From IMG/VR virus record IMGVR_UViG_2778261570_000004, positions 1 to 28,792 of that record: DNA of 28,792 nt; one strand, written 5' to 3'. The notes under the pieces are model-generated. The model saw nothing but the letters and a program-made list of their open reading frames with translations, did no database searches and had not been told where the DNA came from. A program made the translations under genes and the position numbers. Within the stretch, counting starts at the first letter, position 1; every line of letters begins with the position of its first letter. This DNA is from a virus. Taxonomy: Duplodnaviria; Heunggongvirae; Uroviricota; Caudoviricetes. Shown one piece after another: positions 3,217 through 28,792 of this stretch.

Positions 3217-3292
3217 GATGGTGTAGCTCAGCGGTTAGAGCGGTTGACTGTTAATCAACGGGTCGATGGTTCAAATCCATCCACCATCGCCA
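3217..3292 (+). tRNA. tRNA-Asn (anticodon GTT)
   Basis: Manual cloverleaf: acceptor GATGGTG/CACCATC, D-arm GCTC..GAGC, anticodon loop CTGTTAA, T-arm GATGG-TTCAAAT-CCATC, encoded CCA. Confidence 0.85.
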
Positions 3293-3294
3293 AT

Positions 3295-3370
3295 GCCGGT
3301 TTAGCTCAGTTGGTAGAGCGCCTGCCTTGTAAGCAGGATGTCAGCGGTTCGAGTCCGTTAATCGGCACCA
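3295..3370 (+). tRNA. tRNA-Thr (anticodon TGT)
   Basis: Manual cloverleaf: acceptor GCCGGTT/AATCGGC (one G-U), anticodon stem CCTGC/GCAGG with loop CTTGTAA, T-loop TTCGAGT, encoded CCA. Confidence 0.85.
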
Positions 3371-4727: not shown

Positions 4728-4803
4728 GGCCCTTTAGCTCAGTGGTTAGAGCTGGCGACTCATAATCGCACGGTCACCGGTTCAAGTCCGGTAGGGGCCA
4801 CCA
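4728..4803 (+). tRNA. tRNA with anticodon CAT, ileX-like (Ile2 if lysidine-modified, otherwise Met)
   Basis: Acceptor GGCCCTT/AGGGGCC, anticodon loop CTCATAA, T-arm CCGG-TTCAAGT-CCGG, encoded CCA; strongly resembles E. coli ileX as recalled. Confidence 0.85.
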
Positions 4804-8092: not shown

Positions 8093-9600
8093 TGGCTGGT
8101 GGGCGCAAGATTAAATGCGTCACCAGCGATCCACGCTGGCGCGATATGGTAATCAAATACCGCTACAACTTTACCCAGGCTGTTGTTGATATATTCGGGA
8201 TGTTTCCCTCCCACCAGCAGCAGGAGATTATCCAGTCCGTACAGCAAAAAGGGAGCAGAACCACTGTTACCTCTGGTCACGGTACAGGGAAATCGTCGCT
8301 AACGGCTATGTTGTTGCTGATTTATTTGATTCTGTTCCCCGATGCCCGTGTCATCATTGTTGCTAACAAAATAGGTCAGGTTAAGACAGGTGTATTCAAA
8401 TACGTTAAACAGTATTGGGCGAATGCCGTTAAGCGTCATGGGTGGTTACAGACCTATTTTGTCCTGTCTGACACCATGTTTTATGAACGCTCTCGAAAGG
8501 GGATCTGGGAAGTTCTCTGCAAAGGCTATCGACTCGGTAACGAAGAAGCTCTGGCGGGGGAGCACGCGGCACATTTGCTTCTAATTCTGGATGAAGCATC
8601 AGGTATATCTGATAAAGCGATCGGCGTAATGACTGGCGCTCTGACTGAAGAAGATAACCGAATGTTGATGCTATCCCAGCCAACAAGGCCAAGTGGTTAT
8701 TTCTACGATTCGCACCATTCTCAAGCTAAAACCCCAGACAACCCGAAAGGGATCTGGACAGCAATTGTTCTTAACTCAGAAGAATCACCGTTCGTCACAC
8801 CACAATTCATCAGGCAGAAACTCCTGGAATATGGCGGGCGCGATTCTATTGAGTACATGGTCAAGGTTCTTGGTCAGTTTCCTCGGGAGATTAACGGCTA
8901 TTTGCTTGGTCGTGATGAATGCGATCGCGCTGCGCGGCGCAAGGTGTTGTTGGAGAAAAACTGGGGATGGGTGGCTACTGCTGACGTTGGTAACGGGCGA
9001 GACAAGTCAGTTCTTAATATCTGTAAAGTGTCTGGTCACCGGGAAAAGCGGCGTGTTGTTAACTTTAAGGTAATGGAAATGCCAGGGACTATGGACCCGC
9101 TGGCTTTTGCTGACTTTATATACAACGAATGCACGCCGGATAAATACCCGAATATTACAATCGCGGTTGACGCAGACGGTTTTGGTTCAGATACCTGTGC
9201 GCAGCTGGTGCGCCGTGGGGCTAATCCGGTACGGATTCGGTGGGGGAAACCCATGTTTTCGAACAAAGACAAGGAGCGTTTTGTTAACCAGCGTGCCTAC
9301 GCAAATATTATGGCTCGTGATGCCATAAAGTCAGGTCGTATGCGAATAGACAGCGACCCTAAAACGGCAGAGCAAGCGTCAAAAATCCCCTTTTTACTTA
9401 ATGAAGAAGGGAAGATGGCGATGATGCGCAAGGAGCACATGCGGCAAAAGCTGAACATCAAATCACCTGACCGATGGGATACCTACTGCTTTACAATGCT
9501 GGTGGACTATGTTCCTGCTAATGAAGATATCGGCGCTGAAATGGCTACCTTCCGCGATCAGGTTCTTGCAGATGTAGAAATGCCAGATCTGGATATTTGA
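8092..9600 (+). CDS. terminase large subunit (PacB-like)
   Basis: Walker A SGHGTGKSS, Walker B LLLILDEAS, C-terminal acidic nuclease-like segment ITIAVDADGFGSD. Confidence 0.8.
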   Translation: MAGGRKIKCVTSDPRWRDMVIKYRYNFTQAVVDIFGMFPSHQQQEIIQSVQQKGSRTTVTSGHGTGKSSLTAMLLLIYLILFPDARVIIVANKIGQVKTGVFKYVKQYWANAVKRHGWLQTYFVLSDTMFYERSRKGIWEVLCKGYRLGNEEALAGEHAAHLLLILDEASGISDKAIGVMTGALTEEDNRMLMLSQPTRPSGYFYDSHHSQAKTPDNPKGIWTAIVLNSEESPFVTPQFIRQKLLEYGGRDSIEYMVKVLGQFPREINGYLLGRDECDRAARRKVLLEKNWGWVATADVGNGRDKSVLNICKVSGHREKRRVVNFKVMEMPGTMDPLAFADFIYNECTPDKYPNITIAVDADGFGSDTCAQLVRRGANPVRIRWGKPMFSNKDKERFVNQRAYANIMARDAIKSGRMRIDSDPKTAEQASKIPFLLNEEGKMAMMRKEHMRQKLNIKSPDRWDTYCFTMLVDYVPANEDIGAEMATFRDQVLADVEMPDLDI

Positions 9601-26799: not shown

Positions 26800-27378
26800 A
26801 TGCAGAAACAGAGTTATTGGGAGAAACAGAGACAAAAAGCCATGCAAAAATTGGCTGACCCGGCCTGGCGAGAGGAACAAAGGGCAAAGCGCCTTCAACA
26901 AGCTCAACGCCAGCAGCAGCGAGCGAGAGAAAAGGCCGCATCGCCTGAATATCGGCAAAAGAAAAATGAAAAAGCAAAGCAATATGAACAGCGGAGAAAA
27001 GATAAAGCTGTATCCGCTCCGCCCAAAAAAACACGCACGTCACGCGGCCTGAAAGGCAGATCACTCACAGCCGATGAACGCCGGATACAGACCGCTATCG
27101 GTACTCTCCCCTGCATTGCCTGCCATATTCACGGGCAACATAGCCCAGTGGTATCCCTGCACCATATCTTCGGGAGAACGGCAGAGAACGCGCATAAATA
27201 TGTCCTCCCTTTGTGTAAATGGCACCACCAGTACGCAGCGCCAGCCGAGGTCCGAGAACAATATCCCTGGCTGGTCCCTGTTCATGCTGACGGAAAAATA
27301 GGCGGAAAAGCAGATTTCATGCGGCACAATGCCGATGAAATGACGTTGTATCAGATGGCGATTGAATTGATAAATTAG
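26800..27378 (+). CDS. ref: Ref-like protein (basic disordered N-terminus plus Cys/His-rich HNH-like C-terminal domain)
   Basis: N-terminal 85 aa rich in K/R/Q; C-terminal CIACHIHGQH...HHIFGR...CKWHHQ; operator-like motifs on both sides. Confidence 0.5.
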   Translation: MQKQSYWEKQRQKAMQKLADPAWREEQRAKRLQQAQRQQQRAREKAASPEYRQKKNEKAKQYEQRRKDKAVSAPPKKTRTSRGLKGRSLTADERRIQTAIGTLPCIACHIHGQHSPVVSLHHIFGRTAENAHKYVLPLCKWHHQYAAPAEVREQYPWLVPVHADGKIGGKADFMRHNADEMTLYQMAIELIN

Positions 27379-27877: not shown

Positions 27878-27982
27878 AATACTGACTGTTGCGCCATGGC
27901 ATTATCGTGGGGTATATTTCTACGGCACCTTAGAAAAACGGGTGCCGGGATTGGAACCCCGGATAATGTCAAAGGCGACACA

Positions 27983-28004
27983 GACGCCGAAAGCGTCTTT
28001 TTTT
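27983..28004 (+). terminator. rho-independent terminator (GACGC-cgaaa-GCGTC plus T7)
   Basis: Perfect 5-bp stem and run of seven T. Confidence 0.6.
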
Positions 28005-28189
28005 GTGTCATGCCATCGCACAGCCATACGTAGCGTTTAGCTCAGAGATCAATGGTAGTGCTGGCTGGGCTGCCGAAAGGCAGGCCGGTTCCCTTTGACG
28101 CCGGTAGTTCCAACCCAGTCAGTGCTACCGCCATTGAGATTGGAACCTCACGCGGTAGCTCCTTAACTTAGTCAAAGGAGGCTGCCAAT

Positions 28190-28405
28190 ATGGCTACTAT
28201 CCCTACCCCAACTCATTCTGAATTTATCTGGCGTTTCTATTCCTGCCAAAAACACCTGTATATCTGCGTCATGGCTGCTACCGAAGCAGAAGCTCGTTCA
28301 TACCTTCCTGAAGAACCCTGCATTTTTGCCGCACGCTTCACTCTTGATGCGATGGAGATCCTAAATTACTGGAATCTGCCAATGAACTGCGTGGAGGTGC
28401 ACTGA
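28190..28405 (+). CDS. hypothetical 71-aa protein at an icd-like position
   Basis: SD AAGGAGG 7 nt upstream of ATG; TGATG coupling to the downstream Rha-family gene. Confidence 0.45.
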   Translation: MATIPTPTHSEFIWRFYSCQKHLYICVMAATEAEARSYLPEEPCIFAARFTLDAMEILNYWNLPMNCVEVH

Positions 28406-28792
28406 TGAATCTGTCCATCTCTCAAAAAGCGACAATGACCAGTATTGAGATCGCGGAACTGGTAGGTAAGCGTCATGATAATGTGAAGCGTACCATTGAA
28501 GTATTAACTAAAGGTGGTGTCATTCAATTTCCTCAAATTGAGGAAATTGAAAATAAACAATCAGTTGGCCCTCGTCGATTTTCCAAGGCTTACATATTTG
28601 AAGGCGAACAAGGAAAACGAGACAGCATCATTGTCGTCGCGCAGCTCTCTCCGGAATTCACCGCCCGGCTGGTGGACCGCTGGCGCGAACTGGAGAATGC
28701 CCGGGTACAGTTAAAATCAAAAGCCGAAATCCTGGCTGAAATGGCGCAAATGCATCTTGAGCATGAACGCCGGATCAACGCCGTAAATGCCC
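28405..28792 (+). CDS. Rha-family phage regulatory / antirepressor-like protein, 3' end beyond window
   Basis: TMTSIEIAELVGKRHDNVKRTIEVL matches the Phage_pRha N-terminal motif; no stop codon before the window end. Confidence 0.7.
   Translation, partial: MNLSISQKATMTSIEIAELVGKRHDNVKRTIEVLTKGGVIQFPQIEEIENKQSVGPRRFSKAYIFEGEQGKRDSIIVVAQLSPEFTARLVDRWRELENARVQLKSKAEILAEMAQMHLEHERRINAVNA

What the first reader, a model, noticed from the sequence alone, without database searches (positions are those of the whole stretch)
27900..28405. immI-like arrangement: structured RNA region with repeated loop motif, 71-aa ORF, then Rha-family gene
GATTGGAACC occurs twice, each in the loop of a hairpin (27945-27962 and 28126-28157), and a partly complementary GTTCCAAC lies at 28107-28114. 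The region also contains a tRNA-like TAGCTCAG start and a GNRA hairpin. It sits directly upstream of a coupled 71-aa ORF and a Rha-type gene. This parallels the P1 c4-icd-ant unit, where a processed antisense RNA pairs with sites in the ant leader. Complementarity here is only 7 nt, so this is an analogy, not a match.
Basis: partly seen in the sequence, partly recalled or inferred. Interest (0 to 1): 0.55.

Follow-up and report, generated by a model that had tools for sequence, protein, structure and literature searches.

The report
P1-type C4 antisense RNA immunity module
This is a real but already known phage switch: a small antisense RNA (C4) covers the ribosome-binding site of the icd/antirepressor operon, and here it sits in a D6-like plasmid prophage of E. 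coli with its own recognition code.

Summary

- **RNA families.** Rfam places an isrK-type leader sRNA at 27925-28003 (62.7 bits, cutoff 50). It places a C4 antisense RNA at 28048-28135 (77.1 bits, cutoff 45).
- **Proteins.** The 71-aa ORF is 63% identical to P1 Icd. It overlaps the start of a Rha-family gene by one base.
- **Origin.** The window is 99% identical to E. coli phage-plasmids and 88.7% identical to phage D6.
- **Missed half of the recognition.** GTCAAAGG occurs at 27968 and at 28171, the second overlapping the icd Shine-Dalgarno. It pairs with the C4 loop CCTTTGAC. Pairing is therefore 7 + 8 nt, as in P1.
- **Covariation.** In 36 related leader sequences (35 distinct) all six sites change together. 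Paired cells are 99.8-100%, against 26-58% in slid controls. Six allele combinations exist. D6 differs from the window at both determinants, as P7 differs from P1.

The most likely mechanism is that processed C4 blocks icd translation, and with it the coupled antirepressor. The leader copies probably compete for C4. The TAGCTCAG "tRNA-like" string is not a tRNA. The RefSeq "ash family protein" ORF is most likely a translation of the C4 RNA gene. No expression data exist for this element.

Novelty: already known. Interest: low.

The parts
27889..27918 (+). Inferred promoter of the operon: -35 TTGCGC (27889-27894), 18-nt spacer, -10 TATATT (27913-27918)
   Evidence: Read from the sequence. The geometry is conserved in relatives (TTGCGC-18-TATGCT in alignment A2). 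In Gifsy-1 the same -10 TATATT sits the same distance upstream of isrK. The consensus scan did NOT list it, because the -35 matches only 3 of 6. Inference.
27925..28005 (+). Leader sRNA of isrK / seqA / c4-a1b1 type, carrying a1 and b1 and ending at an intrinsic terminator
   Evidence: Rfam isrK RF01394, 62.7 bits (cutoff 50), covering model positions 1-77. MFE fold gives three hairpins, z = -2.0. One compensatory pair lies in hairpin 1.
27951..27957 (+). a1: TTGGAAC, in the loop of hairpin 27945-27962; complementary to a'
   Evidence: The a1-a' helix has 4 of 7 pairs with changes on both sides and 99.6% of cells paired.
27968..27975 (+). b1: GTCAAAGG, in the single-stranded linker; complementary to b'
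   Evidence: The b1-b' helix has 3 of 8 pairs with changes on both sides and 100% of cells paired.
27982..28005 (+). Intrinsic terminator of the leader: AGACGCC-GAAA-GCGTCT followed by T7
   Evidence: Terminator scan. The stem is invariant in relatives. Downstream genes therefore need read-through, as documented for Gifsy-1 isrK (PMC4825925).
28048..28135 (+). C4 antisense RNA gene. The mature RNA is predicted as about 28054-28132, by alignment to the annotated 77-nt P1 C4
   Evidence: Rfam C4 RF01695, 77.1 bits (cutoff 45). MFE -46.5 kcal/mol, z = -5.0. In the three internal helices 13 of 27 pairs change on both sides, with 99.7-100% of cells paired. The ends are inferred from P1 coordinates.
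28092..28099 (+). b': CCTTTGAC in the 12-nt loop of C4 hairpin 2
28107..28113 (+). a': GTTCCAA in the single-stranded junction of C4
28140..28146 (+). a2: TTGGAAC, target of a' in the icd leader, presented in the loop of hairpin 28126-28157
   Evidence: The a'-a2 helix has 4 of 7 pairs with changes on both sides and 100% of cells paired.
28171..28181 (+). b2: GTCAAAGG (28171-28178), overlapping the icd Shine-Dalgarno AAGGAGG (28175-28181)
   Evidence: The b'-b2 helix has 3 of 8 pairs with changes on both sides and 100% of cells paired. P1 b2 overlaps the icd SD in the same way.
28190..28405 (+). icd homologue (71 aa), cell-division inhibitor and coupling ORF
   Evidence: 63% identity to P1 Icd, E = 6e-28. 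RefSeq annotates it 'host cell division inhibitor Icd-like protein'.
28405..28792 (+). 5' part of the Rha-family gene (putative antirepressor), translationally coupled to icd through TGATG; cut by the window end
   Evidence: Pfam Phage_pRha, 39.6 bits. The D6 orthologue is annotated 'anti-repressor Ant'. It is not homologous to P1 Ant1.
28052..28171 (+). 39-aa ORF annotated 'ash family protein' in RefSeq; most likely a translation of the C4 RNA gene
   Evidence: In P4 the Phage_ASH match (L087 8168-8584, minus strand) likewise covers the CI/C4 RNA. The ORF is nevertheless open in all relatives.

Best explanation
The region is the immI-type immunity module of a D6-like, P1-family phage-plasmid.

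1. One promoter near 27889-27918 starts transcription at about 27925.
2. Most transcripts probably stop at the leader terminator (27982-28005). This yields an ~80-nt sRNA that displays a1 (in a loop) and b1 (in a linker).
3. Read-through transcripts carry the C4 RNA, then a2, then b2 with the SD, then icd, then the Rha-type gene.
4. C4 is cut out of the precursor. In P1 this is done by RNase P.
5. C4 pairs in trans through its junction a' (GUUCCAA) with a2, and through its loop b' (CCUUUGAC) with b2. The second pairing covers the icd ribosome-binding site.
6. Blocking icd translation also shuts off the coupled downstream gene. In P1 this adds Rho-dependent polarity.
7. The resident prophage therefore keeps its own antirepressor silent, and also that of an incoming phage with the same a/b code.
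8. The upstream a1/b1 copies bind the same C4 surfaces. They probably act as a competitor or decoy, in cis in the precursor and in trans as the short sRNA, and so relieve repression, as shown for IsrK in Gifsy-1.

**Shown here:** family membership, structure, the bipartite complementarity, and its concerted covariation at all six sites.
**Inferred from P1, P7 and Gifsy-1:** processing, translational repression, coupling and polarity, antirepressor activity of the Rha protein, and the decoy role of the leader.
For: **Family and homology**
- Rfam C4 scores 77.1 bits and isrK 62.7 bits, both above gathering. The same pair of families is found in D6 and in IMG/VR relatives, in Gifsy-1 and in P4.
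- The layout matches the annotated P1 a1, b1, c4, a2, b2, icd, ant element by element.
- Icd is 63% identical to P1 Icd. The stop and start overlap as TGATG.

**Covariation in 36 leader sequences (35 distinct)**
- C4 helices plus a'-a2 and b'-b2: 99.9% of cells paired, 20 pairs changed on both sides. Slid controls give 26-50%.
- a1-a' and b1-b': 99.8% paired, 7 of 15 pairs changed on both sides. Slid controls give 32-58%.
- Window and D6 differ at exactly the two central bases of each of the six sites. P1 and P7 differ in the same way.
- Among the 27 sequences of alignment A2 that share the window-type C4 stem, four of the five recurrent polymorphisms in the C4 gene are the a'/b' dinucleotides. 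The fifth is 28119 in the closing stem.

**Energetics and folding**
- Cognate C4-target duplex energies are -21.8 to -24.3 kcal/mol. Non-cognate pairs give -5 to -21.
- The MFE of the whole read-through RNA pairs a1-a' and b1-b' in cis and sequesters the SD.

**Literature**
- C4 is needed for full repression of ant in P1 (PMC8198154, citing Citron & Schuster 1990).
- The C4 precursor is an RNase P substrate (Hartmann et al. 1995, as listed in PMC4919922).
- IsrK in trans raised anrP translation up to 171-fold across experiments. Mutations in its a1-equivalent loop (G28A, G31A) are compensated by C162U and C159U in the C4-equivalent region (PMC4825925).
- IsrK and STnc1160 are abundant in lysogens (PMC7067206).
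- D6-like plasmids were already reported to carry c4, icd and antirepressor homologues (PMC6799933).
Against: - There are no expression or processing data for this element.
- The promoter is weak by consensus, and the scan did not list it.
- The leader terminator looks strong, so C4, icd and ant depend on an unknown level of read-through.
- The effector is a Rha-family protein with no detectable similarity to P1 Ant1 or to Gifsy-1 AnrP, which has an ORF6N domain. Its antirepressor function is therefore assumed from position and annotation only.
- No P1-type C1 operator lies anywhere in the window at up to 3 mismatches, so control by the primary repressor is unknown.
- The ORF across C4 stays open in all relatives, and its Gifsy-1 counterpart orf45 is translated (PMC4825925). 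A coding contribution is not excluded.
- In a 99%-identical plasmid the Rha gene is annotated as a C-terminally truncated pseudogene. The window ends before this can be checked.
Confidence: 0.88

Rival explanations
1. Gifsy-1 / IsrK-centred reading. The main trans-acting regulator is the short leader sRNA. It activates translation of its own read-through mRNA by remodelling a cis structure in which the leader pairs with the C4-like segment. The C4 segment works mainly in cis, as part of a translated upstream ORF, and not as a processed trans repressor.
For: - The leader matches Rfam isrK, not c4-a1b1.
- The MFE of the full precursor pairs a1-a' and b1-b' in cis and buries the SD. This resembles 'structure A' of PMC4825925.
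- The ORF that starts at the AUGG of the C4 stem is open in all relatives. It corresponds to the translated orf45 of Gifsy-1 (PMC4825925).
Against: - a2 and b2 covary with a' and b' as tightly as a1 and b1 do. That is expected only if C4 also contacts the icd leader.
- icd has its own strong SD overlapped by b2.
- The C4 fold is very stable and covaries internally.
- The P1 homologue is a processed trans repressor.
- The two readings are largely compatible: a decoy for C4 amounts to an activator.
Confidence: 0.3
2. P4-type control. C4 acts mainly on transcription. By pairing with a1/b1 on the nascent leader it enforces termination at 27982-28005, giving autoregulation like P4 CI RNA on seqA and seqC. 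Translational blockage of icd is secondary.
For: - P4 carries the same isrK-type leader plus C4-family RNA.
- b1 ends in GG (27974-27975). These bases form the 5' arm of a GGCG...CGCC hairpin that shares CGCC with the terminator's 5' arm. The nascent RNA 27962-27992 folds this way at -5.6 kcal/mol.
- P1 has the analogous GCGG-ACAA-CCGC element before its leader terminator.
- IsrK in trans raised a transcriptional fusion 8-fold in Gifsy-1, and the authors raised this possibility (PMC4825925).
Against: - The putative antiterminator has only 4 bp and is absent from the MFE of the complete leader.
- It was not tested for covariation. The region is almost invariant.
- b2 overlaps the SD, as in P1, where translational repression is the established mode.
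Confidence: 0.2
3. The 28052-28171 segment encodes a small 'Ash family' protein, as RefSeq annotates, and the repeats are incidental.
For: Pfam Phage_ASH scores 32.2 bits against a cutoff of 26. PGAP annotates the ORF. The ORF is open in all relatives.
Against: - Substitutions are compensatory for RNA helices: 13 of 27 internal pairs change on both sides.
- The specificity changes alter the encoded residues freely (D/C, S/L, G/E).
- No SD precedes the ATG.
- The ATG is itself part of the conserved C4 stem in the Rfam consensus.
- In P4 the Phage_ASH match is the obsolete 'cI protein' CDS, which lies over the CI RNA.
- P1 c4 has a stop after 14 codons in this frame. This was read from the sequence by eye, because the script check failed.
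Confidence: 0.04
4. Chance repeats, or a decayed tRNA gene.
For: The string TAGCTCAG at 28038-28045 resembles the start of a tRNA D-arm.
Against: - No tRNA is found by ARAGORN or Rfam.
- In alignment A2 the 22 columns holding that string are a gap in the L005- and L034-type leaders.
- The 10-mer repeat has a chance expectation of 0.08.
- The sites covary.
Confidence: 0.01

Closest known systems
immI operon of phages P1 and P7 (c4 - icd - ant1/2)
   Same: - The order of elements is the same: a1, b1, leader hairpin with U-run, C4 RNA (b' in a loop, a' in a junction), a2, b2 over the icd SD, icd, then an overlapping downstream gene.
- C4 belongs to the same Rfam family.
- Icd is 63% identical.
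- The recognition elements have the same lengths, 7 + 8 nt.
- Heteroimmune alleles differ by central dinucleotides. P1 and P7 show this; window and D6 show it.
   Different: - The leader matches Rfam isrK, not c4-a1b1.
- The recognition sequences are unrelated: TTGGAAC/GTCAAAGG here, TTGACAG/GTTAGTGA in P1.
- The downstream gene is a Rha-family protein, not the ANT/KilAC-domain Ant1/2.
- No P1-type C1 operator was found.
- The module lies next to ref, not next to sim, kilA and repL.
- A second module of P1/P7 type sits next to the lytic replication gene elsewhere on the same plasmid type.
Phage D6 and D6-like plasmid prophages (for example pYU39_89)
   Same: - 88.7% identity over the whole 913-nt query, window 27880-28792.
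- The same gene order: ref - small ORFs - leader - C4 - icd - Rha/Ant.
- The literature already notes c4, icd and antirepressor homologues, and a second c4-icd region, in D6-like plasmids (PMC6799933).
   Different: D6 carries the other allele at both determinants, TTGAGAC/GTCTCAA and GCAAAAGG/CCTTTTGC. Predicted cross-pairing is weak: -8.8 and -14.8 against -21.8 kcal/mol for cognate pairs. The window's element is therefore predicted to be heteroimmune to D6 at immI.
Gifsy-1 isrK - STnc1160/orf45 - anrP locus (Salmonella)
   Same: - An isrK-type leader with a1 in the second hairpin loop, an intrinsic terminator that is read through, a C4-family RNA downstream, and b2 over the SD of the regulated gene.
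- Experimental proof that the short leader RNA activates the downstream gene, and that its loop pairs with the C4-equivalent segment (PMC4825925).
   Different: - There is no icd. The regulated gene anrP carries an ORF6N domain, not Rha.
- The published model treats the C4 region as part of orf45 and not as a C4 antisense RNA.
- The element is an integrated lambdoid prophage, not a plasmid prophage.
Satellite phage P4 immunity (seqA - CI RNA - seqC)
   Same: The same two Rfam families lie in the same order: isrK-type leader at L087 8615-8692 and C4 at 8420-8507. A processed small RNA pairs with sites upstream and downstream of itself (as summarised in PMC4825925).
   Different: P4 CI acts by causing premature transcription termination of the replication operon. 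There is no icd and no antirepressor. Here b2 overlaps an SD, which points to translational control.

Membership tests
C4 antisense RNA (Rfam RF01695; P1/P7 c4) | Matches the curated covariance model above its gathering score | tested here: met
   77.1 bits against a cutoff of 45, covering model positions 1-87, at 28048-28135.
C4 antisense RNA (Rfam RF01695; P1/P7 c4) | Long closing stem enclosing two hairpins, supported by compensatory changes | tested here: met
   In the three helices 13 of 27 pairs change on both sides, with 99.7-100% of cells paired. MFE z = -5.0.
C4 antisense RNA (Rfam RF01695; P1/P7 c4) | Two unpaired elements (a', b') complementary to a2 and b2 downstream, with b2 covering the RBS of the first ORF | tested here: met
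   a' 28107-28113 pairs with a2 28140-28146. b' 28092-28099 pairs with b2 28171-28178, which overlaps the SD at 28175-28181. Both helices are 100% paired and 7 of 15 pairs covary.
C4 antisense RNA (Rfam RF01695; P1/P7 c4) | Second copies of the targets (a1, b1) upstream of the C4 gene in the same transcript | tested here: met
   a1 is 27951-27957 and b1 is 27968-27975. Cells are 99.8% paired and 7 of 15 pairs covary.
C4 antisense RNA (Rfam RF01695; P1/P7 c4) | Released from the precursor by RNase P and acts in trans as a repressor | not testable with these tools
   Known for P1/P7 only (Hartmann et al. 1995, cited in PMC4919922; Citron & Schuster 1990, cited in PMC8198154). The stem followed by GCCA at 28130-28133 is compatible with RNase P processing.
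P1-type immI operon (c4-icd-ant) | icd homologue directly downstream of C4 | tested here: met
   63% identity to P1 Icd, E = 6e-28.
P1-type immI operon (c4-icd-ant) | Downstream gene translationally coupled to icd | tested here: met
   The stop and start overlap as TGATG at 28403-28407. P1 has an ATGA overlap. This shows the sequence arrangement only; the coupling itself was not measured.
P1-type immI operon (c4-icd-ant) | Downstream gene is an Ant1/2 homologue (ANT/KilAC domain) | tested here: not met
   The window gene and its D6 orthologue carry Phage_pRha. BLASTP against P1 Ant1 gives E = 0.15. Other isrK-type modules (L031, L034) do precede P1-Ant1-like genes.
P1-type immI operon (c4-icd-ant) | C1 operator at the operon promoter | tested here: not met
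   The P1 operator consensus ATTGCTCTAATAAATTT has no match at up to 3 mismatches in the window. No repeated 15-mer from the promoter region suggests another operator. The D6-type operator sequence is unknown to me.
isrK sRNA (Rfam RF01394) | Matches the covariance model above gathering, with three hairpins and the last one an intrinsic terminator | tested here: met
   62.7 bits against a cutoff of 50. The fold is and the terminator.
isrK sRNA (Rfam RF01394) | Terminator read-through gives an mRNA that the short form activates in trans; Hfq binding | not testable with these tools
   Shown only for Gifsy-1 (PMC4825925).
tRNA | Cloverleaf detected by ARAGORN or Rfam tRNA | tested here: not met
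   The only tRNAs in the window are at 3217-3292, 3295-3370 and 4728-4803.
Ash protein family (Pfam PF10554) | Protein-coding gene whose product matches the profile | tested here: inconclusive
   The profile match is above the cutoff, 32.2 against 26. However, the ORF coincides with the C4 RNA, and the P4 member of the family is the obsolete CDS over the CI RNA.

The most novel reading that the evidence does not exclude
The a and b determinants form a natural combinatorial code for RNA-based immunity.

- Among 83 related loci on near-identical backbones, the two-base cores of a and b reassort independently. The window/D6 alleles occur in all four combinations, and two further types exist.
- The upstream decoy sites always follow, with one exception (L035).
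- The 99%-identical plasmid NZ_CP066033 carries two mutually orthogonal C4 modules. PMC6799933 reports a second c4-icd region in the D6-like plasmid pYU39_89.

This would imply frequency-dependent diversification of immI specificity. It would also imply that the long-unexplained a1/b1 sites of P1 are functional C4-binding sites, an in-operon anti-antisense decoy. I could not check whether the D6 genome paper already describes this.
Probability: 0.45. Interest if true: 0.4.

Novelty: already known. Interest (0 to 1): 0.2.

Why it matters
The result identifies the window as carrying a working-looking secondary immunity switch of a widespread E. coli phage-plasmid. It also predicts which relatives the element is immune to.

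Three practical by-products follow:
1. RefSeq records of these plasmids annotate an 'ash family protein' where the C4 RNA gene lies, and they omit the RNA.
2. The natural allele series is a ready-made set of orthogonal RNA-RNA recognition pairs. It could be used to test the rules of C4 specificity.
3. The allele series could also test the role of the a1/b1 leader sites, which the P1 annotation still calls 'putative'.

None of this changes the known picture of immI.

Tried and rejected
- **tRNA reading of TAGCTCAG.** Rejected.
- **P1 C1 operator search.** No match. A search for promoter-region 15-mers repeated elsewhere in the window gave only four weak, non-colinear hits.
- **Consensus promoter scan.** It did not list the inferred promoter. 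The promoter therefore rests on conservation and on the position of the Rfam 5' end.
- **Genome-contig scan with Icd.** It returned no confirmed locus. All comparative loci come from IMG/VR and from named records.
- **Papers not held.** The D6 genome paper (Gilcrease & Casjens 2018), the P1 genome paper (Lobocka 2004) and Hartmann 1995 could not be read. What they say is cited only through other papers or from the GenBank annotation.
- **Anti-SD hairpin 28159-28180.** Predicted in the window, but only 91% paired and without covariation in relatives. It is not claimed as a conserved feature.
- **Leader antiterminator GGCG/CGCC.** Suggestive only.
- **Homology of the Rha protein to P1 Ant1 or Gifsy-1 AnrP.** None found.
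- **Failed script step.** One Python step failed on a missing file. The statement that P1 has a stop after 14 codons in the Ash frame was read by eye from the sequence.
Full report
**1. Observation**

- GATTGGAACC occurs at 27949-27958 and 28138-28147 and nowhere else in the window. Chance expectation is 0.08, and 0 of 100 shuffles gave two matches.
- The first copy lies in the loop of CCGGG/CCCGG (27945-27962). The second lies in the loop of UACCGC/GCGGUA (28126-28157). Both hairpins appear in minimum-free-energy folds.
- GTTCCAAC is at 28107-28114.
- GAAA tetraloops close C4 hairpin 1 and the leader terminator.
- The 71-aa ORF (28190-28405) ends in TGA. That TGA overlaps the ATG of a gene with a Phage_pRha domain.
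GTCAAAGG lies at 27968-27975 and 28171-28178, and its reverse complement lies at 28092-28099. These are the only three matches in 28.8 kb. The downstream copy overlaps the icd Shine-Dalgarno AAGGAGG.
- The 'tRNA-like' TAGCTCAG (28038-28045) is not part of any tRNA. In alignment A2 the 22 columns holding it are a gap in part of the family.

**2. What it is**

An Rfam scan at curated thresholds finds two RNAs in the region:

| Family | Coordinates | Score | Cutoff |
|---|---|---|---|
| isrK (RF01394) | 27925-28003 | 62.7 bits | 50 |
| C4 antisense RNA (RF01695) | 28048-28135 | 77.1 bits | 45 |

- **Source.** The 913-nt stretch 27880-28792 is 99% identical to several E. coli plasmids of 88-97 kb. 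It is 88.7% identical to phage D6. Nearly all matches lie on plasmids (559 of 570 places).
- **Annotation.** In those records the ORFs are annotated 'host cell division inhibitor Icd-like protein' and 'Rha family transcriptional regulator' or 'anti-repressor Ant'. The gene order is ref - small ORFs - icd - ant.
- **Icd.** The 71-aa protein is 63% identical to P1 Icd.
- **Layout against P1.** I aligned the region to the fully annotated P1 immI region, which lists a1, b1, the 77-nt c4 RNA, a2, b2, icd and ant1. The layout is the same.
- **Naming.** The elements I added are b1, b2 and b' in the 12-nt loop of C4 hairpin 2.
- **Extent of pairing.** Pairing is 7 + 8 nt, the lengths annotated for P1.

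**3. Evidence that the pairings are functional**

An Icd-based scan of IMG/VR returned 80 loci. With the loci fetched from named records this made 83, which gave 56 distinct leader sequences. A narrower slice of each (window 27906-28206 and its equivalents) gave the 36 sequences, 35 of them distinct, that make up alignment A2.

| Structure counted | Cells paired | Pairs changed on both sides | Slid controls |
|---|---|---|---|
| C4 helices + a'-a2 + b'-b2 | 99.9% | 20 (a'-a2: 4 of 7; b'-b2: 3 of 8) | 26-50% |
| a1-a' and b1-b' | 99.8% | 7 of 15 | 32-58% |

All six sites change together. The alleles are as follows (P1).

| Determinant | Target / C4 element | Seen in |
|---|---|---|
| a | TTGGAAC / GTTCCAA | window |
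| a | TTGAGAC / GTCTCAA | D6 |
| a | TTGGCCT (a1) and TTGGTCT (a2) / AGGCCAA, kept by a G-U pair | L034 type |
| a | TTGGTCT / AGACCAA | L005 type |
| a | TTGACAG / CTGTCAA | P1 |
| b | GTCAAAGG / CCTTTGAC | window |
| b | GCAAAAGG / CCTTTTGC | D6 |
| b | GTCTAAGG / CCTTGGAC | L034 type |
| b | GTTAGTGA / TCACTAAC | P1 |

- **Combinations.** Counts over the 83 loci were 26, 26, 18 (the window's combination), 5, 4 and 2, plus P1. One locus (L035) has an a1 that does not match its a' and a2.
- **Hot spots.** Among the 27 sequences of alignment A2 that share the window-type C4 stem, four of the five recurrent polymorphisms inside the C4 gene are the a'/b' dinucleotides. The fifth is 28119 in the closing stem. 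Overall 12 of 45 site positions are polymorphic against 20 of 220 elsewhere (Fisher p = 0.004).
- **Energetics.** Cognate duplex energies are -21.8 to -24.3 kcal/mol. The window C4 on D6 targets gives -8.8. On the same plasmid type's second module it gives -6.2.
- **Parallel with P1 and P7.** P1 has TTGACAG and GTTAGTG; P7 has TTAGCAG and GATTGTG. The complementary changes lie in c4. This is the classical basis of P1/P7 heteroimmunity (PMC6906374).

**4. Mechanism**

*Shown by sequence analysis:*
- A stable, covarying C4 fold (z = -5.0).
- Bipartite complementarity to a site that covers the icd RBS.
- A duplicate target pair in a leader that ends in an intrinsic terminator.

*Inferred from P1 and P7:*
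- C4 is excised from the read-through transcript by RNase P (Hartmann et al. 1995, reference 206 of PMC4919922).
- C4 then represses icd translation, and with it ant expression (Citron & Schuster 1990, via PMC8198154).
- By alignment to the annotated P1 C4, the mature RNA here would be about 28054-28132. The closing stem is followed by GCCA.

*Inferred from Gifsy-1:*
- The same isrK + C4 pair is present there, and c4-a1b1 overlaps isrK.
- The short leader RNA made from terminated transcripts relieves repression.
- IsrK in trans raised anrP translation up to 171-fold across experiments.
- Mutations in its a1-equivalent loop are compensated by changes in the C4-equivalent segment (PMC4825925).

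My fold of the whole 27925-28210 precursor pairs a1-a' and b1-b' in cis and buries the SD. This matches that paper's inactive 'structure A'. I therefore read a1/b1 as a decoy for C4, acting in cis and in trans.

A P4-like effect of C4 on termination at the leader terminator is possible but weakly supported.

**5. Differences from P1**

- The leader is of the isrK/P4-seqA type, not the c4-a1b1 type.
- The coupled gene is Rha-family and unrelated to P1 Ant1, which has an ANT/KilAC domain. It is also unrelated to Gifsy-1 AnrP, which has an ORF6N domain. Its antirepressor role is assumed.
- The same isrK-type leader + C4 cassette also precedes P1-type Icd + Ant1-like genes in other phage-plasmids. 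The RNA control unit is therefore modular.
- No P1-type C1 operator is present.
- The 99%-identical plasmid NZ_CP066033 carries a second module of P1/P7 type (c4-a1b1 + C4 + icd + Rha) next to the lytic replication gene. Its a determinant is P7-like and its b determinant is new. A second c4-icd region in D6-like plasmids was already noted in PMC6799933.

**6. Annotation point**

- RefSeq annotates an 'ash family protein' at 28052-28171, exactly over C4.
- In P4 the Phage_ASH match is the obsolete 'cI gene product' CDS. That CDS covers the Rfam C4 hit, which is the P4 CI RNA.
- The substitution pattern here is RNA-like.
- The ORF is nonetheless open in every relative. In the L034 type it runs in frame into icd. 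The Gifsy-1 counterpart orf45 is translated (PMC4825925). I rate a coding role unlikely but not excluded.

**7. Verdict**

This is a genuine immI-type C4 antisense module. It is homologous to P1/P7 c4-icd. It is already recognised in D6-like plasmids (PMC6799933; the D6 GenBank notes) and in curated RNA families (Weinberg et al. 2010, PMC2864571).

Novelty is 'already known' and interest is low. The modest added value lies in three things: the covariation evidence that a1/b1 are real C4 sites, the mix-and-match allele series, and the Ash mis-annotation.

Noticed in passing
window 28052-28171: RefSeq/PGAP annotates an 'ash family protein' here (Pfam Phage_ASH, 32.2 bits). The ORF coincides with the C4 RNA gene. 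In P4 the Phage_ASH match is the obsolete 'cI protein' CDS over the CI RNA. The Pfam family therefore looks like a translation of C4/CI RNA genes.
   Followed up: yes
NZ_CP066033.1 34932-36120 (L084 10933-12119, minus strand), outside the window: The 99%-identical plasmid carries a second module, c4-a1b1 + C4 + icd + Rha, next to the lytic replication gene. Its a determinant is P7-like (TTAGCAG/CTGCTAA) and its b determinant is new (ACGAATG/CATTCGT). It is predicted to be orthogonal to the window's module.
   Followed up: partly
L035 (IMGVR_UViG_2778261639_000014), leader: This is the only one of 83 loci in which a1 (TTGAGAC) does not match a' and a2 (GTTCCAA, TTGGAAC). It is probably a recombinant, and a natural test case for the role of a1.
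   Followed up: no
L031, L034, L039, L064, L079 (IMG/VR contigs, several of 91-103 kb): The same isrK-type leader + C4 cassette precedes a P1-type Icd (73 aa) and a P1-Ant1-like gene instead of Icd71 + Rha. The RNA control unit and the effector genes are exchanged independently.
   Followed up: partly
L034-type leaders (alignment A2): The ORF that starts at the AUGG of the C4 stem has no stop before icd and is in frame with it (...KEAAIMATIP). In the window it stops at TAG 28169-28171, just before b2 and the SD.
   Followed up: no
L086 (Gifsy-1) 34131-34214, minus strand: The published 'orf45'/STnc1160 region of Gifsy-1 is a bona fide Rfam C4 hit (69 bits). The isrK hit overlaps a c4-a1b1 hit. 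The PLoS Genetics paper does not mention phage P1 or RNase P (term search).
   Followed up: partly
window 3217-3292, 3295-3370, 4728-4803: Three tRNA genes on the + strand: Asn-GTT, Thr-TGT and Met-CAT.
   Followed up: no
window 26800-27378: A Ref-like RecA-dependent nuclease (PF16786, E = 7e-35) lies about 500 bp upstream of the module. In D6-like elements ref is the neighbour of this immI-like unit.
   Followed up: no
L002 3526-4236 (NZ_CP066033.1 93078-93788): In the 99%-identical plasmid the Rha-type gene is annotated as a pseudogene missing its C-terminus. D6 has a 313-aa version. The window ends before this can be checked.
   Followed up: no
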